From Thermoplasmatota archaeon (GTDB taxonomy: Archaea > Thermoplasmatota > SW-10-69-26 > JACQPN01 > JAIVGT01): a stretch of 64,000 nt of DNA. A model generated the notes under the pieces. It searched no databases, was not told where the DNA came from, and worked only from the letters and a program-made list of their open reading frames with translations. Position numbers and translations under genes: made by a program. Shown one piece after another: positions 382 through 51,876 of this stretch (position 1 is its first letter; every line of letters starts with the position of its first letter). The DNA is taken from the NCBI GenBank assembly GCA_035541015.1, contig DATLFM010000097.1, positions 719 to 64,718 of the forward strand. Reading direction: 5' to 3'.

Positions 382-978
382 ATGCGCGAGTTCCTCGTCG
401 CCTTCTCCCGCGCCCGGAGCGCCCCCGACGTTCCTCTCGACGACCTTCCGTCCTCCGGCGGACGCTTCGACCTCGTCTGCCGCGTCGTTGCCGCCGCGTT
501 CCTCGTCTCGAACGGGATCCGTCGCGACGTCCGCCTCACGCTCGTGCTGGAGGGTCCGCCCAAGCCGCCGCTTGCCGTGCGGCTCCGCGGCGACGCGCTT
601 CGCAACCTGCACCCTGACGAGCGGTCGATCGCCGCGTGGCTGCTTCGCGCGATGGCAAAGCCCTCGGTGCCGGGCGCTTGGCTTTCGGCCGGCGACGGCA
701 TCGAGCTGTCGCGCGCCTTGCCCTCGGACGTCCTGGCGGAGCGTCCGGACGCTCCGCTTGTCGTCCTTGCCGAGGACGGCGTTCCGCTGGAGAAGGCGGA
801 GCTGCCCGCGGGGGCATGGTTTGTCCTGGGGGACGACCGGGGCGTTCCGCCGTCGCTTGCGTCGGCGCTGTCGACGCGTCGGGCCCTCCGCCTCTCGGTG
901 GGTCCGGTGAGCCTCCACACGGACCAGTGCGTCGCGATCCTTCACAACGCGCTCGACCGGGCGGGCGCGACGCGGTGA
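382..978 (+). CDS. trmY: tRNA (pseudouridine54-N1)-methyltransferase TrmY (SPOUT, DUF358)
   Basis: 198-aa ORF. It begins MREFLV...PLDDLPSSGGRFDLVCR..AAFLVSNGIRRDV.L.LVL, which closely follows the archaeal TrmY pattern. Confidence 0.7.
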   Translation: MREFLVAFSRARSAPDVPLDDLPSSGGRFDLVCRVVAAAFLVSNGIRRDVRLTLVLEGPPKPPLAVRLRGDALRNLHPDERSIAAWLLRAMAKPSVPGAWLSAGDGIELSRALPSDVLAERPDAPLVVLAEDGVPLEKAELPAGAWFVLGDDRGVPPSLASALSTRRALRLSVGPVSLHTDQCVAILHNALDRAGATR

Positions 979-1089
979 GCGGGGACGGCCGGGAGGCGGA
1001 AGGCACGCCCCCCGGCCTGCGCGAATCCGCCTCCCTTCACTGCACCCTCATGTTTCGGAGGAAGCCCGCGCTTCCTCACGTGAAAGTCC

Positions 1090-3495
1090 TCATTGGACTT
1101 TCACGTTGTCGATGGCCCACCCGAGGTAGTTGTTGGCCGTCCCGTCGACCGAGTCGAAGAAGAAGCGGACCTTCGTGCCGCTGCTCTTGTAGCTCGACAG
1201 GCCGATCTCGACCGGGCCCCACGCCGTCTGGTCGGCGTTGCGGCTGTCGCGCTGCCAGAGGGTCGTCCACGACGTGCTGCCGGACACTTGCACCTGCACG
1301 CGCAGGATGTCGTAGGCGCCACCCGAATAGTTCTCCTTCACGTACTTCGTGTCGAAGGTGAGCTTGGGCGAGGCGATGTTGTTGAGGTTCATCGCCGGCG
1401 TGTCCGCGTTCCCGGTCGTGCGCGAGCCCGTCGCGTAGTTGCACGTGCTCGCCTGGTTGTACTGCAGGGAGTTGGGCGACGACACGGCTCCCGCGCACGT
1501 GCTGCCCACGCGCCACAGCCCGCTGAACGTCCAACCGGCAGGCGTGCCCGTTCCGCCGTCGAACTTCTCGTCGAGGACGGCCGTCGCAGCCTGGCACCCG
1601 CTGATGGACAGCGTGGCCGTGCCGGTGGCGCCGTTGTAGCCGCCAAGCTGGATGCGGTACGTCGTCCCGGAGGTGCAGGTGAAGCTGATCTGCGATTGCA
1701 GGCCGCCTCCCGTGTCGTCGTTGCAAGCGAGGTTCGCAAGTGAGCCAAGGCTGCTTCCGGTGTACGCGGCAACCACGGTGTCGTAGTTCGTGCTTCCGCC
1801 CACCGTGCTCACGGTCGCGGTGCCCGCGGCCGGCGCGGTCCAGCTGTACCAAACGGTCGCGCCGATGCTGCCGCACGGCCGCGGCTCGCCGGCCTCGAGG
1901 TCGGCCCCGCTCGTGCTTTGCGTGTTCGAGTAGGGCGATCCCGTGGCGGAGATGGGACTGCCAAAACAGTTGTTCGACGGTCCCGGACAGGAGGGCGTGG
2001 CCGAAACCTGGTTGCTGCGCGGTCCCTCGCCGACGGCGTTCACGGCGGAGACCTGGTAGTAGTACGTCACGCCGTTTGTCACGCTCGTGTCGGTGTACGA
2101 CGTCGTGACGCCAAGGCTCGCGTAGAGCGAGAGCGAGCCCGACGTGGTCCCCCGGTAGAGCCGGTAGCCCGTGATGGGGCTTCCGCCGTCGGAGGGCGTC
2201 GTCCACGAGAGCGACACTTGCAAGTTGCCGGCCGAGGCCGAAAGCGAAGGCGCCGAGGGCACTGAAGTCGCCGGAGCCGTCGCCGCGTCGGCGCGGATGC
2301 GGCCGTAGCCGAACTTGTTGTCGAAGCCCGCCGCGCCGAGGTCAAGGGCGGTGTTTCGCAATCGGTTCTCGATGTCCGTGAAGCCCCAGGACGGGTTGAG
2401 CGTCTTGAGGAGCGCGGCCGTGCCCGCCACGTGCGGCGTGGCCATCGAGGTGCCGCTCATCGTGCAGTAGCTGTTCGTGTTGGGGCCGCAGGCCGACAGG
2501 ATGTCGCTCCCGGGCGCCGAGACGTCCACTTGGGGCCCCTCGCTCGAGAAGCTCGAAAACCCGTCGGAGGAGGTCGTCGACGAGACGACGATCACGACAG
2601 ACGCCTTGTCGCGCCACGGGTAGGAGACGCAATTCGTGCACGGGCCCGAGTTGCCGGCGGCCGCGACGTGCGTGACGCCGCGGTCGTGCGAGTATTGCAC
2701 GGCGTCGTTCATGGCTGCGCTCGCGGCGCTGGAGCCCCACGAGTTCGAGGCGATGTGCGCGCCTTGGTCGCCGGCGTACTTGAGCGCGTTCACGAGCGTG
2801 GTGGTGGAGGACGTGCAGTAGATGCCGGAGACGTAGAACGCCTTCACGGGAAGGATCGTGTGCTGGCTCATGCCCGCGATGCCTTTGGCGTTGTTGATCG
2901 TGGCGCCGGCCGTGCCGGTGGTGTGCGTGCCGTGGTAGCCGCAGGCGCCTCCCTCGTCGTTCGGGTCGTTGTCGTTGTTCACGAAGTCGTACCCTTGCAG
3001 CACGCGGCCGGAGCCCGCGAACTCCTCGTGCGTCTTGACGAGGCCCGAATCCATCATCTGGACCTTGACGGAGGTGGAGCCAAGCGTCCGGTCCCACGCG
3101 GTCTCCGCGCCGATCTTCTTGCTGCCCCAGTGGCCCGAGTTGCCGTACAGGGAATCGTTGGGCACAAGCCGCAGGAAGGCCGCCATGGGGTTGTCCCATT
3201 CGTAGTAGCGCACGCGGTCGTCCGTGCGAACCTGCGCTTCGAAAAGCGAGGCTGGCTCGGCCCGCACGACGGCAAAGACGAGGTCCGCGTCGGTCCACAG
3301 CACGGTCGCACCGTGGTACGTCGCGCCCGGCTCGATCTCCGAAGGGATCCTGTCGAAGAACCCGACGATGTAGTCGCGCTCGCCCACCGGCGCGCGCGAA
3401 GGGTCCACGAGAATCGGATCGACGCTTGCAAGATCGGCCACGGCTGTGCCGTACGGGAAACCGAAGAACGCGATCGCGACGCTGACGCTCACCAA
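1090..3495 (-). CDS. Secreted subtilisin-like serine protease (peptidase S8) with C-terminal fibronectin-III/pre-peptidase beta-rich domains
   Basis: 801-aa ORF with a hydrophobic N-terminus. The catalytic S8 motifs are DSG..., GYHGTHTTGTAG and GTSMATPHVAG. The long Ser/Thr/Gly-rich C-terminal half is typical of surface proteases. Confidence 0.85.
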   Translation of the reverse strand: MVSVSVAIAFFGFPYGTAVADLASVDPILVDPSRAPVGERDYIVGFFDRIPSEIEPGATYHGATVLWTDADLVFAVVRAEPASLFEAQVRTDDRVRYYEWDNPMAAFLRLVPNDSLYGNSGHWGSKKIGAETAWDRTLGSTSVKVQMMDSGLVKTHEEFAGSGRVLQGYDFVNNDNDPNDEGGACGYHGTHTTGTAGATINNAKGIAGMSQHTILPVKAFYVSGIYCTSSTTTLVNALKYAGDQGAHIASNSWGSSAASAAMNDAVQYSHDRGVTHVAAAGNSGPCTNCVSYPWRDKASVVIVVSSTTSSDGFSSFSSEGPQVDVSAPGSDILSACGPNTNSYCTMSGTSMATPHVAGTAALLKTLNPSWGFTDIENRLRNTALDLGAAGFDNKFGYGRIRADAATAPATSVPSAPSLSASAGNLQVSLSWTTPSDGGSPITGYRLYRGTTSGSLSLYASLGVTTSYTDTSVTNGVTYYYQVSAVNAVGEGPRSNQVSATPSCPGPSNNCFGSPISATGSPYSNTQSTSGADLEAGEPRPCGSIGATVWYSWTAPAAGTATVSTVGGSTNYDTVVAAYTGSSLGSLANLACNDDTGGGLQSQISFTCTSGTTYRIQLGGYNGATGTATLSISGCQAATAVLDEKFDGGTGTPAGWTFSGLWRVGSTCAGAVSSPNSLQYNQASTCNYATGSRTTGNADTPAMNLNNIASPKLTFDTKYVKENYSGGAYDILRVQVQVSGSTSWTTLWQRDSRNADQTAWGPVEIGLSSYKSSGTKVRFFFDSVDGTANNYLGWAIDNVKVQ

Positions 3496-6137: not shown

Positions 6138-7646
6138 CTATTGCAACGATTGCACAGGAGCGAGCACCCGGCGGCCGTCCACGCCCGAAGGTGCGATCGG
6201 GGGCGCGTCCTGCCCGACTGCAAGCGCGGCGTGGGCGCCCGGCACGTGCGTCAGGATGACCCGCGCAAGCGCGCGTCGAATCCGGATGCCCGCCGTGCTC
6301 GCGCTTGCATGGATCTCGCGACCCACCTGCGCCAATCCGATGCGCCGGGGGGATGCAAAGAAACCGCCCTCGGCGGCCTTGCGCAGCGCGCGAAGGTCGG
6401 CGCCGGCGCGGTTTGCAAAAGAGGGTGCTTCCGGGATCTGCACGAACCGGTACCGGCCTTGCGCGAAGTCCCGCACGCCTTGGGCAAAGCGCGCAAGCCC
6501 CGGCTGCGATCCGTAGGCCGTAAGCCTTCCCGCGCCGTGGCGAAACTCGGTCGTGAGCGCGCCGGCCGCTCCGCAAGCGTCCCGGAGGAGGTGCTCGGGC
6601 GAGAATCCTCCGGAGCCCTCGCGCGGCCGGGCCCAGCGCTCGAAGATGACCCGACGTCCGAGGGACCGCTCGAGAACCTCCCGCGCCAGGATCGGTTGCG
6701 GAAGGGCCCCGCCCAGCTGGCGATCGAGCCGCGCTACCGCCTCGGGCGGGCCTTCCACGACGAGGATCTCCCAGGCCTCTGCGTCGACGACCGAAAGCGA
6801 TTCCACGCGACCCACGAGCGCGGGCTCCGACAGGATGGCCGAGCGAAGTCCCGTCGCCTCGACGGGTGCCCAAAGCTCCACGGCAAGCGATGGCGAGCCG
6901 CTTCGCTGCGCGCGGATCCACTCGAGGTGCAAGGCGCAAAGACGCGCCACGGCGCGACGGAGATCCTCCTCCAGCGCGCTCTTCGAGCGGTTCTGCCGCG
7001 CCGCAAGCAGCCGGATGGAGGTGCGCCGCGGCTCGTCGAAGTATCCATGGGAGAGGGCGTGAAGGAGGATCCTCTCGTCCGGCGGGGCAAGCCCCCCCGA
7101 TGCCGCCTTGGAAGGCGCCGGCCCAAGGCGCAGCAGGCGCAAGCGAAGCGAGGGAGCCAACGCCGTTCGCGCGGCGTCGACGAAACGCTCGAACGGGGCC
7201 TCGGCGGGCGCGGTGACGGTGACAAGGAGCGCGCCGGCTTCCACGCGGGCCGCGTAGGCCGCGCGGGGACCCAGCTCGCGCGCGCAAAGCTGGGGAAGCG
7301 ACGGGCGCCCGCGCCCGTCGTCGAGGTCCGGGTCGAAAAAGGCCAGCGAGCCCGGTTGGCGCGCCAGGGGCTGGAGGGTTCCGCCGGCGGCGGCTTCGCG
7401 CGCCAGCCGGGCCGAGAGCTCGTCGAGGTCGCGCTCGGGCCCCTGCACGATCACCAGGCGGGACACGGCGTCGGAGGTGGCGCAGGTGGTTCGGATCGTG
7501 GCGCGGAGCTTGGGGCGCGCCAAGAGAAGATCGTAGACGGGGCTGGGGCTCCGACCGGTCACGGCGAATTCGACTTGTCGGCGCACCGACTGCCCCCGCC
7601 GGGTCAACCGCCGCCAAGCGCAAGAACGTTGCGTCCCAAGCCGCAA
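6138..7646 (-). CDS. Hypothetical protein with an internal HTH_10 (Bat-type) helix-turn-helix motif. It may be two fused or adjacent genes.
   Basis: 502-aa ORF. Residues around 195-245, ERILLHALSHGYFDEPRRTSIRLLAARQNRSKSALEEDLRRAVARL, match the HTH_10 pattern (GYFD.PR...ELA...G.S.S..S..LRRA..KL). The opposite-strand ORF 6111..7823 is Arg-rich nonsense. Confidence 0.35.
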   Translation of the reverse strand: MRLGTQRSCAWRRLTRRGQSVRRQVEFAVTGRSPSPVYDLLLARPKLRATIRTTCATSDAVSRLVIVQGPERDLDELSARLAREAAAGGTLQPLARQPGSLAFFDPDLDDGRGRPSLPQLCARELGPRAAYAARVEAGALLVTVTAPAEAPFERFVDAARTALAPSLRLRLLRLGPAPSKAASGGLAPPDERILLHALSHGYFDEPRRTSIRLLAARQNRSKSALEEDLRRAVARLCALHLEWIRAQRSGSPSLAVELWAPVEATGLRSAILSEPALVGRVESLSVVDAEAWEILVVEGPPEAVARLDRQLGGALPQPILAREVLERSLGRRVIFERWARPREGSGGFSPEHLLRDACGAAGALTTEFRHGAGRLTAYGSQPGLARFAQGVRDFAQGRYRFVQIPEAPSFANRAGADLRALRKAAEGGFFASPRRIGLAQVGREIHASASTAGIRIRRALARVILTHVPGAHAALAVGQDAPPIAPSGVDGRRVLAPVQSLQ

Positions 7647-19857: not shown

Positions 19858-20667
19858 ATGCGAGCGCGCGGATCGTTGCTTGCCCTGCTCGGTTGCCTTG
19901 CCCTCGTCGCCCTGCCCACGGCCTCCGCCGGCCCCTTCGAGGACGTTCCGGGCCTCGTCGAGGACGCCCGCGCGCTCGCGTGCGGAACCGCCGGCGGCGC
20001 GCCCGTCGCCGGCGACACGCTGCAGGAGCTTGGCGTCTGCGAACCGCCCGGCTCGCCCGACGTGCCACCGCCCGAAGTTCCGGCCGAGGCGGAGGCGCCC
20101 CTTGCGGACGAGGCCGCCGAGGTCGCCGACGAGATCGTCGGCGCCGCGCTTGGCGCCGTCGACGCCATCCGTGAAAACCCCGCGGACGCCCCAAACGCGC
20201 TCGCCGCGTTCCTCGAAGCCGTCGTGGCCGCCCTCGGCAAGCTCTTCGACGCCGCGGCCCAAGCGCTGGGCCTTGCCGCAAGCCTGCCCCTTGCGGCCGC
20301 CGACCTTGGAAGGGGCGCGCTCTCCGCCGTCGCCGACGCGCTAGCGGGCGCAGCCGACGGGCTTGCGACCGCCGCCTCCGGCGGAGCGCAATCCGTCGCC
20401 GACGCAGCCTCGGGCGCCACCCGATCGGTCGCCGGCGCGGCCGGCGCAACCGCGGACGGGCTCGCCTCCGGGCTTCACGCCATTGCCGACGGCGTCGCTT
20501 CGGCCGCGCGCGCGGTCGCCGACGCCGTCGCCTCCCTCTTTGCCGCCTCCCAGCCTCCGGCGCCCGGCGGGAACGCTCCGCTCCCCGTGGAGCTTCCCGC
20601 CGCGCGCGGGCTTCCCTCGTCCCTTCTCGACGAGGTCGGCCGGACGGTCGACGGGCTTGCGCCGTGA
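19858..20667 (+). CDS. Secreted alanine-rich low-complexity protein
   Basis: The signal peptide is MRARGSLLALLGCLALVALPTASAGP. It is followed by about 240 aa of Ala/Gly/Asp-rich helical repeats. Confidence 0.45.
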   Translation: MRARGSLLALLGCLALVALPTASAGPFEDVPGLVEDARALACGTAGGAPVAGDTLQELGVCEPPGSPDVPPPEVPAEAEAPLADEAAEVADEIVGAALGAVDAIRENPADAPNALAAFLEAVVAALGKLFDAAAQALGLAASLPLAAADLGRGALSAVADALAGAADGLATAASGGAQSVADAASGATRSVAGAAGATADGLASGLHAIADGVASAARAVADAVASLFAASQPPAPGGNAPLPVELPAARGLPSSLLDEVGRTVDGLAP

Positions 20668-20696
20668 TGTATACGGAGGTATACGTTTGTATACAT
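20667..20696. repeat. Array of three GTATAC hexamers at exact 10-bp phasing (ATGTATAC-GGAG-GTATAC-GTTT-GTATACAT) in the 36-bp gap between convergent genes
   Basis: Read directly: GTATAC at 20669, 20679 and 20689. The outer half-sites ATGTATAC and GTATACAT are inverted repeats. The element is AT-rich in a 70% GC genome. Confidence 0.7.
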
Positions 20697-20703
20697 CGCC
20701 CGA

Positions 20704-21585
20704 CTAGCGCGAAAGCCCGCGCGCCGCGCGCACCGTGTTTGCAAGCAACATGGCGATCGTCATGGGCCCCACGCCGCCGGGCACGGGCGTGATCGCTGAA
20801 GCGACCTTCGAGACCTCCTCGAAGGCGACGTCGCCCACGATGCGCGATCCCTTCGGGTGGGAAGGATCGGCCACGCGGTTGATGCCGACGTCCACGACGA
20901 CCGCGCCGGGCTTCACGTGGCGCGCGCGGACGAACTCCGGCTGGCCCATGGCCGCGACGAGGACGTCGGCCTCGCGCGTCGCTTGCTCGAGGTTTGGGGT
21001 GCGGCTGTGGCAGACGGTTACGGTCGCGTCGCCGCCGCGGCCCTTGCCGAGAAGGAGCACCGAGAGAGGTTTGCCGACGATGTTGCCGCGGCCGAGGACG
21101 GCCACGCGCTTTCCTTGCGGCGAGTGGCCGTTTCGTTCGAGGAGCTCGACGACGCCGGCCGGCGTGCACGGGACAAAGCCGGGGCGTCCGGCGAGCAGGC
21201 GGCCGAGGTTCTCGTGCGTGAAGCCGTCCACGTCCTTTCGCGGATCGAGCGTTGCGAGGACGGCCTCCTCGGAGATCTGCGGCGGAAGCGGGAGCTGGAC
21301 GAGGATGCCGTGCACGGCGGGGTCCGCGTTGAGGGCGCGCAGGACGGCCAGAAGCTCGGCCTCGGTCGTCGCGGCGGGGAGGCGTCGCGTGCCGTGCTCG
21401 ATGCCCACTTCGGCGCACGCCTTGTTTTTGTTCTCCACGTAGACGACGCTTGCGGCGTTGTCGCCGACGAGCACGAACTGGAGGTTCGGGACGACGCCCT
21501 GCGCGCGGAGGGTTTCGACGTCCTTGCGGATCTCCGCGCGCATCGTGGCCGCGAGGGCTTTTCCGTCGAGGATGCGCGCTCCCAT
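20704..21585 (-). CDS. folD: Bifunctional methylenetetrahydrofolate dehydrogenase/cyclohydrolase
   Basis: 293 aa, MGARILDGKALA...ILVQLPLP...GRGNIVGKP, the canonical FolD pattern. Confidence 0.9.
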   Translation of the reverse strand: MGARILDGKALAATMRAEIRKDVETLRAQGVVPNLQFVLVGDNAASVVYVENKNKACAEVGIEHGTRRLPAATTEAELLAVLRALNADPAVHGILVQLPLPPQISEEAVLATLDPRKDVDGFTHENLGRLLAGRPGFVPCTPAGVVELLERNGHSPQGKRVAVLGRGNIVGKPLSVLLLGKGRGGDATVTVCHSRTPNLEQATREADVLVAAMGQPEFVRARHVKPGAVVVDVGINRVADPSHPKGSRIVGDVAFEEVSKVASAITPVPGGVGPMTIAMLLANTVRAARGLSR

Positions 21586-47483: not shown

Positions 47484-47849
47484 CTAGAGTTCCCACGCTT
47501 CGCCGGCCCTCACAAGAGGCTCGTCCTCCCCGCCGCTTGCGACCTGCGGCGCCTCCTCAAGGCCGACGCTCTCGACGAGGGCCTTCAGCGAAGCAAGGTA
47601 GGCGTGGAACGCCTCGATTCCCCGCGGCGTGATCCGAAACCGCACCTCAAACGAAAGGTCCGCCAACACGCGCGAACTCTCCAGAAAGCCCGCTTCCTCC
47701 AGCTTGGCCGCATGGCTCGCGAGGTTTCCGCTCGTTAGCCCAAGTCCCCTCTGAAGGACCACGAACGAAGCCTGACGATTCCGGTACAACGCCGCAAGGA
47801 TGCGCAGACGTTGCGGCTGATGGATCACAGGATCGATCGCTGGGAGCAC
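47484..47849 (-). CDS. Winged-helix transcriptional regulator (ArsR/PadR-like)
   Basis: 121 aa. The segment QRLRILAALYRNRQASFVVLQRGLGLTSGNLASHAAKLEEAGFL is a wHTH. It is convergent with atpA. Confidence 0.55.
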   Translation of the reverse strand: MLPAIDPVIHQPQRLRILAALYRNRQASFVVLQRGLGLTSGNLASHAAKLEEAGFLESSRVLADLSFEVRFRITPRGIEAFHAYLASLKALVESVGLEEAPQVASGGEDEPLVRAGEAWEL

Positions 47850-47852
47850 GCG

Positions 47853-48650
47853 CTACCCCCGCAGCGCCTGCCAGAGGCCGGCCACAATGGGAACGCCGCC
47901 TGTGACGACCGACCCCGCCAGCAACAAGTTCGTAAGCCGAACGAAAACGTCCGACGGATCGCCCGCGATCCCCGGCAAGGCGTACGTGACCCCGAGCGCA
48001 GCCACAAACATGGCCACGCCGATGATCATCGTTACCCTGCGGCCAAGCGCCGTTGCGCCATGCAAATTGAGAAGGCCCAACGCATACCAGGCCAGCCCCA
48101 AACCTGCGAAGATCGCGCCCGGGCTTCGGGCCGGCGGCAGGAGCCAGGCCATGATGCCCACGCCGGCGAGCACGAAAAATGCGAAGAGGCAAACCGCAAG
48201 GGCGCGCTGCCAAAAGACGCGGCCGAGCGGCTGGACAAGCGCCGCGACGCGCCAAAGGACGTGCGTCACCGCCAGGCCCAGCAGAATCCACAGGACCGCA
48301 AGCAGATACATTTCCAGGCCCGGCTCGTACGTCCGCACGATCGTTTGTGTCCCCGACGGAATCGGGGATGAGAGGTCGACAAGCGCGCGGATCGAGGCCT
48401 GCTGGAACATGGCAAGAAAACTCAGCAGGAAGCCGAGCGTGACGATGCCCCAGGCCATCCACGTAAGGCCTTCGGTGCGCCTGCGAAACGGCTCCTCGAA
48501 GCGTGTCGCCGCATCGATGATGTCGATCGCCCGGCCAACCGACAGCGCATTTGGACCTTGCGTCACGTGCATCGCCTCCGGATTCCTCGTTCCCTTCAAA
48601 GAACCGCCGGTTCGGCGGGGCGGTACGCGGGGCGCGCGCAACGGAAGCAA
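47853..48650 (-). CDS. Hypothetical polytopic membrane protein
   Basis: 265-aa ORF with 6-7 TM segments. It sits 3 bp upstream of the regulator gene (operon). Confidence 0.4.
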   Translation of the reverse strand: MLPLRAPRVPPRRTGGSLKGTRNPEAMHVTQGPNALSVGRAIDIIDAATRFEEPFRRRTEGLTWMAWGIVTLGFLLSFLAMFQQASIRALVDLSSPIPSGTQTIVRTYEPGLEMYLLAVLWILLGLAVTHVLWRVAALVQPLGRVFWQRALAVCLFAFFVLAGVGIMAWLLPPARSPGAIFAGLGLAWYALGLLNLHGATALGRRVTMIIGVAMFVAALGVTYALPGIAGDPSDVFVRLTNLLLAGSVVTGGVPIVAGLWQALRG

Positions 48651-48829: not shown

Positions 48830-49801
48830 CTAGGAGATCGTCAGCATCGCCTGGTACGTCGCCGAGACGCCCGAGCCCAACGGCGCGGACGAGGACAACC
48901 GCACCGAAAGCTCGTACGCTCCCGGCGCCCGCAGGTCGTAGCGCGCGTAGGTCACGCGGCCCGAGGCTTGCGAGGTCGTCGGAGCGATCTCGGAGCCGCC
49001 AAGCAGGATCGAGAACTGCGCGGAGTCGGTCGGAAGCGATCCGCCGTACTGGAACGAGACCTCAAGCGTGCGGTCGCCGGGGCCCACCTCGAAGGAATGG
49101 CTGTCCCGCGGCCGCACCGCGTCCACCGTTCCCTGGAACTGCAGCACGCGCGCCTGCGGCGGCGGGGGATCGATGGGCGGGATCGTGAAGTTGCGGTCGC
49201 CCGTCACGCGATTGAGCACGTCGCCTGCGCGCGCGCCCAGCGTCGCGATCGCAAACCGCCCGCGCTCGCGGCTCTCCGCGTGCACGGACCACACGGGGTC
49301 CGACGCGGCGTCGGGCATGGCAAGCACCAGGAACATCCGCGCGTCGGCGGCCTCCACGATCGTCTGGAACTCGGCGTCCGCGCGCGCGATCTCGACGGCG
49401 CGCGTGCTGTCGACCTCCCAGCGGGCGAGGGGGACCTTGGGCATCTGGGGACCCGGCCCGTAGTCGGATCCGGCCGCAAGGACGGTGCCGTTGCGGAACG
49501 CCATCGTCACGAACGTCGCGTTGGCGCCGGCGCTGTACCAGAGGACCTGCCAGGCCGTCGCGCGCCCGTCGCCCACGTTTGGGTCCTCCTCCATGCGCAC
49601 GGAGAAGCCGGGCATCTCGAAGAGATCGCCGCGCATCTCGGCGCCGGCAAGCGCGACCGGCTGCGCGTCGCCCTGCCATTCGCGCGCTCGCGACTCGCTT
49701 CGGGCCACGGCGTCCTTGGCGGTGATCCCCGCGTCGGAGCCGCCCAGGCAACCGGCGACGAAGGATCCGACGAAGAGCAAGGCGACGAGGGCGTGGCGCA
49801 T
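48830..49801 (-). CDS. Secreted hypothetical lipoprotein
   Basis: The N-terminus MRHALVALLFVGSFVAGCLGG has a lipobox VAGC. No catalytic motif is recognized. Confidence 0.5.
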   Translation of the reverse strand: MRHALVALLFVGSFVAGCLGGSDAGITAKDAVARSESRAREWQGDAQPVALAGAEMRGDLFEMPGFSVRMEEDPNVGDGRATAWQVLWYSAGANATFVTMAFRNGTVLAAGSDYGPGPQMPKVPLARWEVDSTRAVEIARADAEFQTIVEAADARMFLVLAMPDAASDPVWSVHAESRERGRFAIATLGARAGDVLNRVTGDRNFTIPPIDPPPPQARVLQFQGTVDAVRPRDSHSFEVGPGDRTLEVSFQYGGSLPTDSAQFSILLGGSEIAPTTSQASGRVTYARYDLRAPGAYELSVRLSSSAPLGSGVSATYQAMLTIS

Positions 49802-49849
49802 GCGGCGGCAATCGTGCGGGCGACCGTGAAGCTTTCCACCGGACGCGCG

Positions 49850-49877
49850 ATGTATACGTACGTATACATCCGTATGC
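49850..49877. repeat. Perfect 20-bp palindrome ATGTATACGTACGTATACAT plus a third degenerate hexamer. Together they give three GTATAC-like units at 10-bp phasing in a divergent intergenic region.
   Basis: GTATAC is at 49852 and 49862, and GTATGC at 49872. The palindrome spans 49850..49869. It lies between the lipoprotein gene (minus, start 49801) and aguB (plus, start 49911). Confidence 0.75.
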
Positions 49878-49910
49878 GTCGGACGTGCGGGGCGCCCGCC
49901 GCGCGGACGT

Positions 49911-50822
49911 TTGCTGCGGAACGCTTATGCCGGCGCGTTCGTTCGAGTCGCGATGAGCCCGACCGTGCGCGTGGCCCTGCTCCAGACGCACGCAAGCGCG
50001 GACCCCGAGGACAACCTTCGCCGCACGCTTGCGCTTGCGCGCGAGGCGGCCGCCCGCGGCGCGAAGATCGTCTGTCTGCAGGAGCTGTACCGGACGGAGT
50101 ACTTCCCGCGCGAGGAGAGCCAGGCGAACTTCCGACTCGCCGAGACGATCCCGGGGCCCAGCACGGAGGCTTTCTCCGCCCTGGCGCGCGAGACGGGCGT
50201 CGTGCTCGTCGTCCCGATCTTCGAGAAGCGCGCGGCCGGGCTTTACCACAACAGCCTCGCCGTGATCGACGCCGACGGGCGCCTCGTTGGCGTCTACCGC
50301 AAGATGCACATCCCCGACGACCCGTGCTTCTTCGAGAAGTTCTACTTCGCGCCCGGCGACACGGGCTTTTGCGCCTTCGACACGCGGTACGGCCGCGTGG
50401 CGGCGCTCATCTGCTGGGATCAGTGGTACCCCGAGGGCGCGCGGCTGGCGGCGCTTGCGGGCGCGCAGTTCCTCTTCTATCCGACCGCGATCGGTTACCA
50501 CCCCAACGACGCGGGCGTGGCGCACGTGCAGCGCGACGCGTGGGAGACGATCCAGCGCTCGCACGCGATCGCAAACGGCGTCTTCGTGGGCGCGGCCAAC
50601 CGCGTGGGGCGCGAGGACGAGGTCGTCTTCTGGGGCGCCTCCTTCGTGGCGGGCCCCTTTGGCGAGGTGCTCGCGCGCGCCTCGCAGGACAAGGAGGAGA
50701 TCCTGCTTGCCGATTGCGATCTTTCGCAGATCGAGAGCGCGCGTCACGGTTGGCCCTTCCTGCGCGACCGGCGCATCGACGCCTACGACGGCCTGACGAA
50801 GAGGTTCCTCGATGCGGCCTAG
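49911..50822 (+). CDS. aguB: N-carbamoylputrescine amidohydrolase (nitrilase-superfamily C-N hydrolase)
   Basis: The sequence VRVALLQT...IVCLQEL...ICWDQWYPE... shows the catalytic Glu-Lys-Cys triad layout. The ORF starts at TTG 49911, and the internal Met at 49953 is the likely start. Confidence 0.8.
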   Translation: MLRNAYAGAFVRVAMSPTVRVALLQTHASADPEDNLRRTLALAREAAARGAKIVCLQELYRTEYFPREESQANFRLAETIPGPSTEAFSALARETGVVLVVPIFEKRAAGLYHNSLAVIDADGRLVGVYRKMHIPDDPCFFEKFYFAPGDTGFCAFDTRYGRVAALICWDQWYPEGARLAALAGAQFLFYPTAIGYHPNDAGVAHVQRDAWETIQRSHAIANGVFVGAANRVGREDEVVFWGASFVAGPFGEVLARASQDKEEILLADCDLSQIESARHGWPFLRDRRIDAYDGLTKRFLDAA

Positions 50823-51876
50823 CGAAGCGCGCAAGGCAAGCCCTCCGGGTCCCACGCCCCGCGAGCTTGGCTACGCCATGCCTGCCGAGTGGGCGCCGCA
50901 GGAGACCGTTTGGCTCGCGTGGCCGCACGATCCGCTCACCTTCCCCGGCCGCATCCCGCAGGTGGAGACGATCTACCACCAGGCCATCCGCGCGCTCACG
51001 CGAAACGGCCGCGTGGACCTTCTCGTGAGCAACGCCGACGAGCGGCAGCGCGTGGAGGCGTGGGCGTCTCGCGAGGGCGTGGGGAACCTCCGGCTGCACG
51101 ACGTCCCGGTGGCCGACGTGTGGATCCGCGACTACGGCCCCACGTTCGTGAGGGGTCCGCGCGGCGTGGCCATGGTCGACTGGCTGTTCAACGCGTGGGG
51201 CGACAAGTACCCGACGCTTCGGCCCGACGGCGTGGTTCCTCGGCTCCTTGCGCCCAAGCTTGGGGTCCCCCGCTTCGAGCCGCAGGTCGTCATGGAGGGC
51301 GGAAGCTTCGACGTGAACGGCGAGGGCGCCGTGCTCACGACCGAGCAGTGCCTTCTCCACGAGAACCGCAACCCGCACCTCTCGCGCGAGCGCATCGAAG
51401 GCGTGCTGCGCGACTTCCTTGGCGCGGAGACGGTCCTTTGGCTGGGCGAGGGCGTCGTGGGGGACGACACGGACGGGCACGTGGACGACGTCGCCCGCTT
51501 CGTCGCGCCCGACACCGTGCTCGCTTGCATGGAAGAGGACCCGCACCATCCCAACCACGCGATCCTCGCCGAGAACGGGAAGCGACTTTCGTCCATGCGC
51601 GATCCGCGCGGGCGCCCGTTCAAGCTCGTTCCGCTTCCCATGCCCGGAGACGTGCTCGACGACGAGGGCGAGCCGCTGCCGGCAAGCTACGCGAACTTCC
51701 TTGTCGCAAACGGCGTCGTGCTGCTGCCCGTGTTCGGGCACGCCAACGACGAGCGCGCCGTCCGCACGCTCGAAGCCTGCTTCCCGGACCGCGCCGTCGT
51801 CCCCCTGCGGTGCGAGGACATGGTCCACGGCATGGGCACGCTGCATTGCGCAAGCCAACAGCAGCCCGCCGCGTGA
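50812..51876 (+). CDS. aguA: Agmatine deiminase (PAD-type)
   Basis: RELGYAMPAEWAPQETVWLAWPH... and the C-terminal catalytic Cys in ...HGMGTLHCASQQQP are present. It overlaps the aguB end by 11 bp. Confidence 0.85.
   Translation: MRPSEARKASPPGPTPRELGYAMPAEWAPQETVWLAWPHDPLTFPGRIPQVETIYHQAIRALTRNGRVDLLVSNADERQRVEAWASREGVGNLRLHDVPVADVWIRDYGPTFVRGPRGVAMVDWLFNAWGDKYPTLRPDGVVPRLLAPKLGVPRFEPQVVMEGGSFDVNGEGAVLTTEQCLLHENRNPHLSRERIEGVLRDFLGAETVLWLGEGVVGDDTDGHVDDVARFVAPDTVLACMEEDPHHPNHAILAENGKRLSSMRDPRGRPFKLVPLPMPGDVLDDEGEPLPASYANFLVANGVVLLPVFGHANDERAVRTLEACFPDRAVVPLRCEDMVHGMGTLHCASQQQPAA

What the first reader, a model, noticed from the sequence alone, without database searches (positions are those of the whole stretch)
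49850..49877. Perfect 20-bp AT-rich palindrome ATGTATACGTACGTATACAT with three GTATAC-like hexamers phased at 10 bp in a divergent promoter region
In a genome of about 70% GC, a 20-bp perfect palindrome that is 70% A+T is highly non-random. The hexamers sit exactly one helical turn apart at 49852, 49862 and 49872. The same architecture recurs at 20667..20696. The element lies between divergently transcribed genes, a secreted lipoprotein and aguB. It could be a phased operator for a dimeric or tetrameric wHTH regulator. It could also be a pair of overlapping bidirectional TATA/BRE elements of an unusual GTATA-type. Single copies of the ATATAC and GTATAT variant sit about 28 nt upstream of other start codons at about 34941 and 18954. 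The 3x phased arrays look like a specialised version of that element.
Basis: seen in the sequence. Interest (0 to 1): 0.65.

Follow-up and report, generated by a model that had tools for sequence, protein, structure and literature searches.

The report
Orphan three-hexamer GTATAC protein-binding arrays
Two 36-bp elements in this archaeal genome each carry three GTATAC palindromes exactly one DNA turn apart, the same layout that small antitoxin repressors bind in front of their own genes in many other archaea and on the E. coli F plasmid, but here the elements have no such gene beside them and mostly lie at the ends of genes, so their role is unclear.

Summary
GTATAC occurs five times in 64 kb, and all five lie in the two arrays (expected 0.41). 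The window comes from a ~69% GC Thermoplasmatota archaeon. Two more copies were found on other contigs of the same metagenome. All four derive from one symmetric element, GCGATGTATAC-N4-GTATAC-N4-GTATACATCGC.

[quoted passage not shown] Where checked, a ParE-type toxin gene follows. The F-plasmid ccdAB operator is the characterised precedent.

The best reading is a binding array for three dimers of a ribbon-helix-helix (RHH) type protein. It is not a wHTH operator and not a special TATA/BRE element.

The window arrays are atypical for such operators:
- no RHH or toxin gene lies near them;
- site 2 and one further copy fill gaps between convergent genes;
- the array is absent upstream of aguB in relatives.

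Hexamers and phasing are conserved while spacers vary, and all copies are intergenic, which argues for function. What that function is remains inferred: trans-regulation at site 1, and possibly a roadblock or boundary elsewhere.

The parts
49847..49882 (.). Site 1: 36-bp element GCGATGTATAC-GTAC-GTATAC-ATCC-GTATGCGTCGG. Its right arm is degenerate, two transitions away from GTATACATCG.
49850..49869 (.). Perfect 20-bp palindrome ATGTATACGTACGTATACAT (hexamers 1 and 2 with their AT/AT extensions)
49852..49857 (.). Hexamer 1, GTATAC
49862..49867 (.). Hexamer 2, GTATAC
49872..49877 (.). Hexamer 3, GTATGC (one A-to-G change)
20664..20699 (.). Site 2: 36-bp symmetric element GTGATGTATAC-GGAG-GTATAC-GTTT-GTATACATCGC with three perfect hexamers at 20669, 20679 and 20689. 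The TGA stop of the upstream gene (20665..20667) overlaps its left end.
48830..49801 (-). Lipoprotein-like ORF (323 aa, lipobox VAGC) with no detectable homologues. Its start codon is 48 nt from the array. It may head an operon with the two genes below.
47853..48572 (-). Multi-pass membrane protein (239 aa as called in the ENA contig), no Pfam hit
47484..47849 (-). The comparative data do not link it to the array.
49953..50822 (+). aguB (N-carbamoylputrescine amidase, CN_hydrolase). Its start is 76 nt from hexamer 3. aguA follows at 50812..51876.
49923..49930 (+). GCTTATGC, a candidate ordinary TATA box for aguB, 28 nt upstream of the ATG (the typical distance in this genome). It lies downstream of the array.
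   Evidence: inference
19858..20667 (+). Ala-rich secreted protein (signal peptide, no Pfam hit). Its stop codon is fused to the left end of site 2.
20704..21585 (-). folD. Its stop codon lies 7 nt beyond the last base of the ATGTATAC...GTATACAT core of site 2 (20696), convergent with the secreted-protein gene.

Best explanation
Each element is a protein-binding array of three identical, self-symmetric subsites (GTATAC), centred exactly 10 bp apart and so on one face of the helix. The outer subsites are extended to (GC)GATGTATAC.

The most likely ligand is a small dimeric ribbon-helix-helix (RHH) type protein of the antitoxin class (DUF7557/VapB-like). One dimer would insert its two-stranded beta-sheet into the major groove at each palindromic hexamer. 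Three neighbouring dimers would bind cooperatively, possibly bridged by a partner toxin as in CcdA-CcdB.

In other archaea this same array is the autoregulatory operator of DUF7557-ParE (or VapB-like/PIN) toxin-antitoxin operons. [quoted passage not shown]

In this Thermoplasmatota genome the arrays are 'orphan' copies with no adjacent RHH gene, so the binding protein would act in trans from another locus.
- At site 1 the array lies upstream of both divergent core promoters (lipoprotein operon and aguBA). It could modulate one or both.
- At site 2, and at L132, it fills a gap between convergent genes. There it cannot be a classical operator. A bound protein array could act as a transcription roadblock or boundary, or as a decoy that titrates the repressor.

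Shown: the sequence architecture, its non-randomness, its recurrence, its conservation pattern, and its association with antitoxin genes in other archaea.
Inferred: the RHH fold of DUF7557, the binding itself, the existence of a cognate protein in this organism, and every functional consequence.
For: 1. Non-randomness.
2. Association with antitoxin genes. A genome-collection scan found the identical 3xGTATAC/10-bp array directly abutting the 5' end of a ~79-aa gene in Woese-, Aenigm-, Undin-, Nano- and Micrarchaeota, Methanosarcinales, Methanofastidiosum and DHVE2.
3. Identity of those genes. 20 of 21 such proteins hit Pfam DUF7557, and 5 also hit VapB_antitox. The next gene is ParE_toxin in 5 of 5 tested, and PIN in Natrinema.
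4. Other array-adjacent proteins hit RHH_8/RHH_1 (L020) and, weakly (E=0.095), RHH_3 (L082).
5. Operator layout is BRE/TATA, then 3 hexamers, then ATG, with conserved hexamers and variable spacers.
6. Characterised precedent. The centre of the F-plasmid ccdAB operator holds three GTATAC palindromes bound by RHH CcdA dimers bridged by CcdB (PMC5389731). An F-type operator read here shows ATATAC-12-GCATAC-11-GTATGT upstream of ccdA.
7. Further copies. Two more copies of the same 36-bp element lie on other 67-68% GC contigs of the same metagenome.
8. Conservation pattern. Across the four copies 1 of 18 hexamer columns varies against 6 of 8 spacer columns (p=8e-4), and spacer length is invariant.
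9. Location. All four copies are intergenic although only 7.7% of the sequence is (P about 1e-5 to 3.5e-5).
10. Fold. The AF2 secondary structure of DUF7557 is an extended N-terminus, two helices and then C-terminal helices, which is RHH-like.
Against: - No RHH, DUF7557, VapB or toxin gene exists in the 64-kb window or next to the two extra copies. The cognate protein in this organism is hypothetical.
- Three of four copies lie at gene 3' ends, two of them in convergent gaps. No RHH operator is known from such a position.
- The array is absent upstream of aguB in the nearest relatives, so it is not a conserved regulatory site of aguBA.
- The RHH fold of DUF7557 is not demonstrated. The AF2 model is low confidence (pLDDT 55), no PDB sequence match was found, and hhalign against one RHH protein was uninformative.
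- In some bacteria similar arrays sit next to GntR-family genes or an unrelated ~100-aa protein. GTATAC arrays are therefore not exclusive to RHH proteins.
Confidence: 0.5

Rival explanations
1. Operator for a winged-helix regulator. A dimer or tetramer of the HTH_34 protein encoded at 47484..47849, or another wHTH, would bind the 20-bp palindrome ATGTATAC-N4-GTATACAT. It would autoregulate the lipoprotein/membrane-protein/HTH_34 gene string and perhaps aguBA.
For: - The half-sites are 10 bp apart centre to centre, which suits wHTH dimers.
- The HTH_34 gene is the last of three co-oriented genes whose first start codon lies 48 nt from the array.
- Small wHTH regulators are commonly autoregulated (general knowledge).
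Against: - Three other copies of the element have no wHTH gene nearby, and two lie between convergent genes.
- A third, equally conserved hexamer in phase is not explained by a single dimer.
- In about 30 loci from other archaea the array's partner is an antitoxin-type small protein, never HTH_34.
Confidence: 0.13
2. A small dispersed palindromic repeat (REP/MITE-like) that spreads to, or is tolerated only in, extragenic DNA, especially between convergent genes. It would act, if at all, as an RNA or DNA hairpin (mRNA 3'-end stabiliser or terminator) and not as a dedicated protein operator.
For: - At least four copies of a ~36-bp symmetric element have unrelated flanks, and all are extragenic.
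- Two copies fill convergent gaps, and in two the upstream gene's TGA stop is fused to the element.
- Site 1 lies at a synteny break relative to relatives, where a tRNA gene precedes aguB.
- The element can form hairpins.
Against: - No terminator-like hairpin with a T-run was found on either strand at either window site.
- Fold z-scores are only -0.35 to -3.0, as expected for any palindrome.
- The stems are A+T-rich and weak for a 69% GC genome.
- Copy number appears low: four hits to the strict pattern in the whole JGI collection, three from one sample.
- Variation concentrated in the spacers, with invariant spacing and three identical palindromic hexamers, is not what hairpin maintenance or neutral copying predicts.
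- No REP-associated transposase is known in archaea (own knowledge), and none is in the window.
Confidence: 0.17
3. A specialised bidirectional archaeal promoter. The GTATAC hexamers would serve as TATA-like boxes bound by TBP/TFB, driving transcripts in both directions: the lipoprotein and aguB mRNAs at site 1, and antisense RNAs at site 2.
For: - The hexamers are the only A+T-rich sequence in the site 1 intergenic region.
- Ordinary TATA boxes of this genome include GTATAT and ATATAC variants.
- In Natrinema the distal hexamer lies 24-29 nt upstream of a probably leaderless start codon, and in AT-rich archaea it is fused to the TATA box.
Against: - The generic boxes here are TTTAWA-like and lie about 27-30 nt from start codons. 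The arrays lie 48 and 76 nt away, and aguB has its own box at the normal distance.
- Three of four copies face gene 3' ends.
- Three identical phased palindromes are not a TBP/TFB requirement.
- GTATAC is absent from all other promoters in the window.
Confidence: 0.08
4. Centromere-like or chromosome-organising sites bound by a SegB-like RHH protein, dispersed along the chromosome.
For: Archaeal SegB is an RHH protein that binds about 35-46 dispersed palindromic sites built from two hexameric palindromes (PMC12284271). The window arrays are dispersed, are not tied to promoters, and are of RHH-operator type.
Against: - The SegB motif is TCTAGA-S-TCTAGA and about 83% of its sites are intragenic. 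The present arrays are GTATAC x3 and strictly intergenic.
- No segA/parA or segB-like gene is in the window.
Confidence: 0.05

Closest known systems
F-plasmid ccdAB operator bound by the RHH antitoxin CcdA (PMC5389731)
   Same: - Three short GTATAC(-like) palindromic hexamers lie about one helical turn apart.
- Each is a subsite for one RHH dimer.
- High affinity arises only from multivalent binding of several dimers, bridged by the toxin.
- The F core even reads ATGTATAC-like (ATGCATAC in the variant read).
   Different: - The ccd hexamers are 11-12 bp apart and mostly imperfect, within a 113-bp operator holding 8 sites.
- They lie in the promoter of ccdAB itself.
- The system is bacterial and plasmid-borne.
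- The window arrays are strictly 10-bp phased, nearly perfect, only 36 bp long, archaeal and chromosomal, and have no TA genes next to them.
Operators of archaeal DUF7557-ParE (and VapB-like/PIN) toxin-antitoxin loci
   Same: The array is identical: GTATAC-N4-GTATAC-N4-GTAT(A/G)C with a T, often AT, before the outer hexamer. Hexamers are conserved and spacers vary.
   Different: - There the array lies between the BRE/TATA and the antitoxin start codon, which is often fused to the last hexamer (GTATAC|ATG).
- There is one array per cassette.
- In the window the flanks are GC-rich (GCGAT...ATCGC), no antitoxin or toxin gene is adjacent, and most copies lie at gene 3' ends.
aCcr1-box of Sulfolobales (RHH cell-cycle repressor; PMC9976878)
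   Same: A small RHH protein acts in trans on several chromosomal promoters through a short palindromic motif. [quoted passage not shown]
   Different: There are one or two 9-bp boxes and no triple phased array. The boxes are promoter-located. No aCcr1 homologue was identified here.
SegB binding sites (archaeal RHH segregation protein; PMC12284271)
   Same: An RHH protein binds dozens of dispersed chromosomal sites that are built from repeated hexameric palindromes and are unrelated to local gene regulation.
   Different: The motif is TCTAGA-S-TCTAGA (7-bp register), the sites are mostly intragenic, and they cluster near segAB and oriC.
Bacterial REP/BIME extragenic palindromes
   Same: Short (~35 bp) palindromic elements confined to extragenic DNA, often between convergent genes.
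   Different: REPs occur in hundreds of copies and carry a conserved 5' GTAG-type tetranucleotide and a G+C-rich imperfect hairpin. They are linked to RAYT transposases and are not known in archaea. None of these features is seen here.

Membership tests
RHH-antitoxin operator (ccdAB / DUF7557-ParE type) | Two or more short palindromic or repeated subsites spaced about one helical turn apart | tested here: met
   Three hexamers at exactly 10-bp spacing in both window sites and in L130 and L132
RHH-antitoxin operator (ccdAB / DUF7557-ParE type) | Subsite sequence matches that of characterised or comparative members (GTATAC) | tested here: met
   archaeal TA operators; ccd operator
RHH-antitoxin operator (ccdAB / DUF7557-ParE type) | Located in the promoter of its own antitoxin-toxin operon, overlapping the TATA/-10 to start-codon interval | tested here: not met
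   No antitoxin or toxin gene within 64 kb. Site 2 and L132 lie in convergent gaps.
RHH-antitoxin operator (ccdAB / DUF7557-ParE type) | Bound by an RHH dimer at each subsite | not testable with these tools
   Needs EMSA, footprinting or a structure. The RHH fold of DUF7557 is itself only inferred.
Archaeal core promoter (BRE/TATA) | A+T-rich box about 25-30 nt upstream of the transcription start (roughly the start codon for leaderless mRNAs) | tested here: not met
   The arrays lie 48 and 76 nt from the flanking start codons, whereas other genes have TTTAWA boxes at about 27-30 nt. Three of four copies face gene 3' ends. No TSS data are available.
wHTH (MarR/PadR/HTH_34-type) operator | Inverted repeat with half-sites about 10 bp apart near the regulator's own operon | tested here: inconclusive
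   The palindrome geometry fits, and an HTH_34 gene lies 2 kb away in a co-oriented gene string. The other copies have no such gene, and the comparative partners are antitoxins.
Intrinsic terminator / RNA hairpin element | Stable G+C-rich stem-loop followed by a U-tract, more stable than shuffled controls | tested here: not met
   No terminator-like site at either window site. z-scores from -0.35 to -3.0, A+U-rich stems. No Rfam family.
REP/MITE-like dispersed repeat | Many near-identical copies with conserved termini, extragenic, with differences spread evenly along the element | tested here: inconclusive
   Extragenic location is met. Only 4 copies were seen. Differences are concentrated in the spacers. 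The whole genome could not be scanned.
SegB-type centromere-like site | TCTAGA-S-TCTAGA-like motif, mostly intragenic, clustered near segAB | tested here: not met
   Different motif, intergenic location, and no segAB in the window

The most novel reading that the evidence does not exclude
Operator-type arrays for an RHH (antitoxin-derived) protein have been detached from their toxin-antitoxin genes and recruited by an archaeal host chromosome. They would act as protein-bound boundary elements placed in the short gaps between convergent genes and upstream of divergent promoters. A three-dimer protein block on the DNA would stop read-through or antisense transcription. In a 69% GC genome, where T-rich terminators are scarce, this would be a previously undescribed protein-roadblock mode of transcription-unit insulation in archaea. 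It would also be an example of host domestication of a TA repressor.
Probability: 0.1. Interest if true: 0.7.

Novelty: new variant of a known kind. Interest (0 to 1): 0.4.

Why it matters
If the reading is right, it matters in three ways.
1. It gives a ready-made, testable operator for a very large, uncharacterised archaeal antitoxin family: DUF7557, about 2,700 clusters at 90% identity, with no literature. The operator follows the same logic as the textbook ccdAB system, across the two domains.
2. It shows that such operators can exist as orphan, selectively maintained sites in a host chromosome, at places where classical repression is impossible. This points to trans-regulation, repressor titration or transcriptional insulation by TA-derived proteins in archaea.
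3. For annotation, it warns that A+T-rich palindromes in high-GC archaeal intergenic DNA are not automatically TATA boxes.

Tried and rejected
- Lipoprotein homologue search: none found, so no orthologous loci could be compared through that gene.
- Conservation upstream of aguB: four relatives (66-73% identity) lack any GTATAC array. A conserved aguBA operator is rejected.
- tblastn of array-associated antitoxins against the window: only chance-level hits. The recurrent weak hit at 6657..6746 lies antisense within an HTH_10 regulator gene.
- Pfam screening of essentially all window genes and small ORFs found no RHH, toxin, ParA/SegA or Orc1/Cdc6.
- Promoter/terminator consensus scans at both sites found nothing.
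- Rfam found only a tRNA-Ser in the window.
- RNA folds gave palindrome-level stability only.
- TA cassettes flanked by two arrays (a mobile-cassette idea) were rejected: there is one array per cassette.
- The viral-contig scan found AT-rich iteron-like GTATAC repeats, not informative for this organism.
- The AF2 monomer of DUF7557 had too low confidence for a fold search.
- A PDB sequence search with the family profile gave no significant hit. hhalign against one RHH protein was uninformative.
- The first ccdA plasmid hit had a non-canonical upstream region, so a second was used.
- A look-up of the window's last gene, to extend the contig, found no record. The left-end extension (L188) carried no array and no RHH gene.

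Full report
**Observation**

The sequence is as described. A perfect 20-bp palindrome ATGTATACGTACGTATACAT lies at 49850..49869. GTATAC hexamers start at 49852 and 49862, and a GTATGC hexamer starts at 49872. The second site, 20667..20696, reads ATGTATAC-GGAG-GTATAC-GTTT-GTATACAT and has three perfect hexamers.

The window is about 69% G+C. GTATAC occurs five times in 64 kb, and all five lie in these two arrays; 0.41 are expected and no shuffle out of 100 reaches five. The two-hexamer pattern with up to two mismatches gives four matches against 0.01 expected. A three-hexamer scan allowing up to five mismatches finds nothing outside the two sites. The arrays are therefore all-or-none and far from chance.

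**Organism and gene context**

The window is archaeal. It encodes eIF-6, ribosomal proteins L31e, L39e and S19e, and an A-type ATPase. Its aguB is annotated in NCBI as coming from a 'Candidatus Thermoplasmatota archaeon' MAG.

Site 1 lies in the 151-bp gap between two genes. One is an orphan lipoprotein-like gene (48830..49801, minus strand). It is followed on the same strand by a membrane protein and an HTH_34 winged-helix regulator. The other is aguB-aguA (plus strand).

Site 2 is not in a promoter. It fills the 36-bp gap between the stop codon of a signal-peptide-bearing, Ala-rich protein gene (19858..20667, plus) and the stop codon of folD (20704..21585, minus). Both genes were also called in an independent ENA assembly.

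Ordinary promoters in this window carry TTTAWA/TATAAA-like boxes about 27-30 nt upstream of start codons, which implies mostly leaderless mRNAs. aguB has its own candidate box (GCTTATGC, 49923..49930) at the normal distance. The array lies 48 nt from the lipoprotein start codon and 76 nt from the aguB start codon, which places it upstream of both core promoters.

**What the same array is elsewhere**

I scanned one genome per prokaryotic species for TGTATAC-N4-GTATAC-N4-GTAT. After discarding one repeat-laden Nitrospirales MAG and chance hits in A+T-rich genomes, one pattern dominated.

In Woese-, Aenigm-, Undin-, Nano- and Micrarchaeota, Methanosarcinales, Methanofastidiosum and DHVE2 Thermoplasmatota, the array sits immediately upstream of a ~79-aa gene. 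When the loci are aligned on the gene, the layout is GAAA..TTTAAATATAC-N4-GTATAC-N4-GTATACA-(0-12 nt)-ATG. A BRE/TATA is fused to the distal hexamer, and the start codon is sometimes fused to the proximal one.

- Twenty of 21 such proteins match Pfam DUF7557, and five also match VapB_antitox.
- The gene that follows overlaps or abuts the first. It is a ParE_toxin family member in five of five tested (all above Pfam's cut-off) and a PIN-domain gene in Natrinema.
- Other array-adjacent proteins hit RHH_8/RHH_1 (L020) and, weakly (E=0.095, below Pfam's cut-off), RHH_3 (L082).
- By eye, several bacterial neighbours also look like RelB/CopG-type RHH proteins.

These arrays are therefore the autoregulatory operators of type II toxin-antitoxin loci. 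The DUF7557 family is large (2,742 clusters at 90% identity). No paper in the library mentions it.

**Characterised precedent**

[quoted passage not shown] Dimers of the ribbon-helix-helix (RHH) antitoxin CcdA bind them and are bridged by CcdB, so that weak individual contacts add up to a strong repressing complex (PMC5389731). In an F-type plasmid read here, the region upstream of ccdA shows ATATAC, GCATAC and GTATGT spaced 12 and 11 bp apart.

A self-symmetric hexamer matches the two-fold symmetry of an RHH dimer (established knowledge of the Arc/MetJ/CopG family). Three hexamers at 10-bp spacing would place three dimers on one face of the DNA.

The RHH fold of DUF7557 itself remains an inference. 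It rests on the weak VapB_antitox and BfmA/BtgA N-terminal matches and on the predicted layout: an extended N-terminus (TTIKI), helix 10-23, helix 27-43 and then two C-terminal helices. The monomer model is of low confidence (pLDDT 55), so I ran no fold search. PDB sequence searches and one hhalign comparison were uninformative.

**More copies in the same organism**

All three outer half-sites in the window read GYGATGTATAC. A metagenome scan with GYGATGTATAC-N4-GTATAC-N4-GTAT returned four contigs.

- One is the window's site 2 (99.9% identical).
- Two others come from the same JGI sample and have the same 67-68% G+C (L130, L132). They carry new copies.

The four copies align to a symmetric 36-bp element, GCGATGTATAC-N4-GTATAC-N4-GTATACATCGC. 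Site 1's degenerate right end (CGTATGCGTCG) is two transitions away from the consensus.

L132 is again a convergent gap. The plus-strand gene's TGA stop is fused to the element exactly as at site 2 (…TGATGTATAC…), and a minus-strand gene's TAG stop follows 24 nt later. In L130 the element lies about 20 nt beyond the stop of a membrane-protein gene, with about 545 bp free of convincing ORFs on the other side.

**Signs of function**

- All four copies are intergenic. Only 7.7% of the two ENA-annotated stretches is intergenic, which gives P of about 1e-5 to 3.5e-5 for random placement.
- Among the four copies only 1 of 18 hexamer columns varies, against 6 of 8 spacer columns (Fisher p=8e-4). The 4-nt spacer length never changes.

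This is what selection on three equivalent, phased protein subsites predicts. It is not what recent neutral copying predicts, nor the mere maintenance of a hairpin.

**What does not fit a classical operator**

- The window contains no RHH, DUF7557, VapB or toxin gene. tblastn with the array-associated antitoxins gives only chance-level hits. Pfam screening of essentially all genes and small ORFs finds only wHTH-type regulators.
- The closest aguB loci (66-73% identity) have no GTATAC array. In two of them a tRNA gene precedes aguB, so site 1 lies at a lineage-specific synteny break. The lipoprotein has no homologues at all.
- TA cassettes elsewhere carry only one array, so the window arrays are not the two ends of a cassette.
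- No terminator-like hairpin with a T-run is present at either window site, no Rfam family matches, and predicted RNA hairpins are no more stable than expected for a palindrome (z from -0.35 to -3.0).

**Most likely mechanism**

I commit to this reading. The elements are binding arrays for three dimers of a small RHH-type, antitoxin-class protein encoded elsewhere in this genome. They are orphan copies of a TA-type operator.

At site 1 the bound complex would sit just upstream of two divergent core promoters and could modulate the lipoprotein operon, aguBA or both. At the convergent-gap copies it could act as a roadblock or boundary for converging transcription, or simply as a decoy that titrates the repressor.

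Confidence that the element is an RHH-type multi-dimer binding array is about 0.5. Confidence in any particular downstream role is lower.

Rivals:
- wHTH operator, for example for the nearby HTH_34 protein (0.13);
- REP/MITE-like dispersed palindrome (0.17);
- specialised bidirectional TATA-like promoter (0.08);
- SegB-like chromosome-organisation site (0.05). SegB binds TCTAGA-S-TCTAGA, mostly inside genes (PMC12284271).

The aCcr1 system of Sulfolobales shows that small archaeal RHH proteins can act in trans on multiple chromosomal promoters through a short palindromic box (PMC9976878). That makes a trans-acting reading plausible, although the aCcr1-box is not a triple phased array.

**Comparison and novelty**

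In architecture the element works like the ccdAB operator and the DUF7557-ParE operators. It fails one defining membership feature, location in the promoter of its own TA operon, so I do not file it as a TA operator proper. It is best described as a new variant of a known kind.

Two things are new:
1. a pan-archaeal, undescribed TA family with a sharply conserved operator;
2. orphan, apparently selected copies of that operator at gene boundaries in a high-GC Thermoplasmatota genome.

Interest is moderate (0.4). The molecular nature is ordinary, and the placement is the unexplained part.

**Limits**

All binding and functional statements are inferences from sequence and comparative context.

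Noticed in passing
L005, L016, L019, L027, L028, L034, L045, L051, L060, L061, L065, L067, L080, L084, L086, L102, L105, L121 (arrays and adjacent genes): A very widespread archaeal type II toxin-antitoxin module: a DUF7557 antitoxin (~79 aa, 65-85% identical across phyla) with a ParE-family toxin (~84 aa). The family has 2,742 clusters at 90% identity. Its operator is sharply conserved: BRE/TATA fused to 3xGTATAC. No paper in the library mentions DUF7557. The cross-phylum sequence identity suggests recent horizontal spread.
   Followed up: partly
L047, L104, L108 (Micrarchaeota); L019, L034, L045, L084, L105: The antitoxin start codon is fused to the operator. In Micrarchaeota ATGTATAC itself encodes Met-Tyr-Thr of the protein (MYTTIKV...). 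In DHVE2, Methanosarcinales and Woesearchaeota the ATG follows the last hexamer directly (GTATAC|ATG).
   Followed up: no
L012, L013, L015, L023, L024, L038, L041, L055, L081, L094, L095, L098, L103, L118 (Solibacillus, Lysinibacillus, Ureibacillus, Psychrobacillus, Paenibacillus, Bacillus): In Bacillales, TTGTATAC-N4-GTATACAA-N2-GTAT(T/G/A)C arrays lie just upstream of the RBS of a ~85-118-aa protein with a conserved GA(Q/K)TFRRGRAL.FY motif. It has no convincing Pfam or NCBIfam family. In at least L012, L041, L055 and L098 it is divergent from a CN_hydrolase gene, the same superfamily as aguB next to site 1. This may be a coincidence.
   Followed up: partly
L124/L126 about 60-135 nt upstream of aguB; L128 about 60-130 nt upstream of aguB: In the closest relatives a tRNA gene lies immediately upstream of aguB. 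In the window that position is occupied by the array and an orphan lipoprotein/membrane-protein/HTH_34 gene string. This marks a lineage-specific synteny break at site 1.
   Followed up: partly
L130 about 727..1271: About 545 bp with no convincing ORF (by GC3) lies next to the L130 copy of the array. That is unusually long for this compact genome. Rfam (gathering threshold) finds nothing.
   Followed up: partly
L003, L009, L018, L033, L035, L037, L044, L052, L056, L064, L074, L075, L077, L106 (Nitrospirales MAG CBDBCZ01): One long-read Nitrospirales MAG holds hundreds of (T)GTATAC-N4 phased repeats spread over many kilobases on several contigs. This could be a satellite-like 10-bp periodic repeat or an assembly or contamination artefact.
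   Followed up: no
L139, L148, L166, L168, L170, L175-L177, L182 and other IMG/VR contigs: Phage and viral contigs carry longer iteron-like direct repeats of GTATAC/CGTATAC with 10-11-bp periods. They may be replication-origin or repressor iterons. They are not associated with DUF7557.
   Followed up: no
window 22957, 24368, 34942, 54985, 57569, 61255, 61291 and others: A+T-rich TTTAWA/TATAAA boxes sit about 27-30 nt upstream of many start codons, which implies predominantly leaderless transcripts in this high-GC Thermoplasmatota genome.
   Followed up: partly
L006, L007, L021, L025 (bacteria): In some bacteria, three-hexamer GTATAC arrays lie next to proteins whose N-termini look by eye like GntR-family regulators (not checked against Pfam). 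Phased GTATAC arrays may therefore also serve HTH regulators, and the motif alone does not identify the binding protein.
   Followed up: no
window 6138..7646 (-): A 502-aa HTH_10 / HVO_2928_N (bacterio-opsin-activator-like) regulator gene. My GC3 filter missed it, and weak antisense tblastn hits fall within it.
   Followed up: partly
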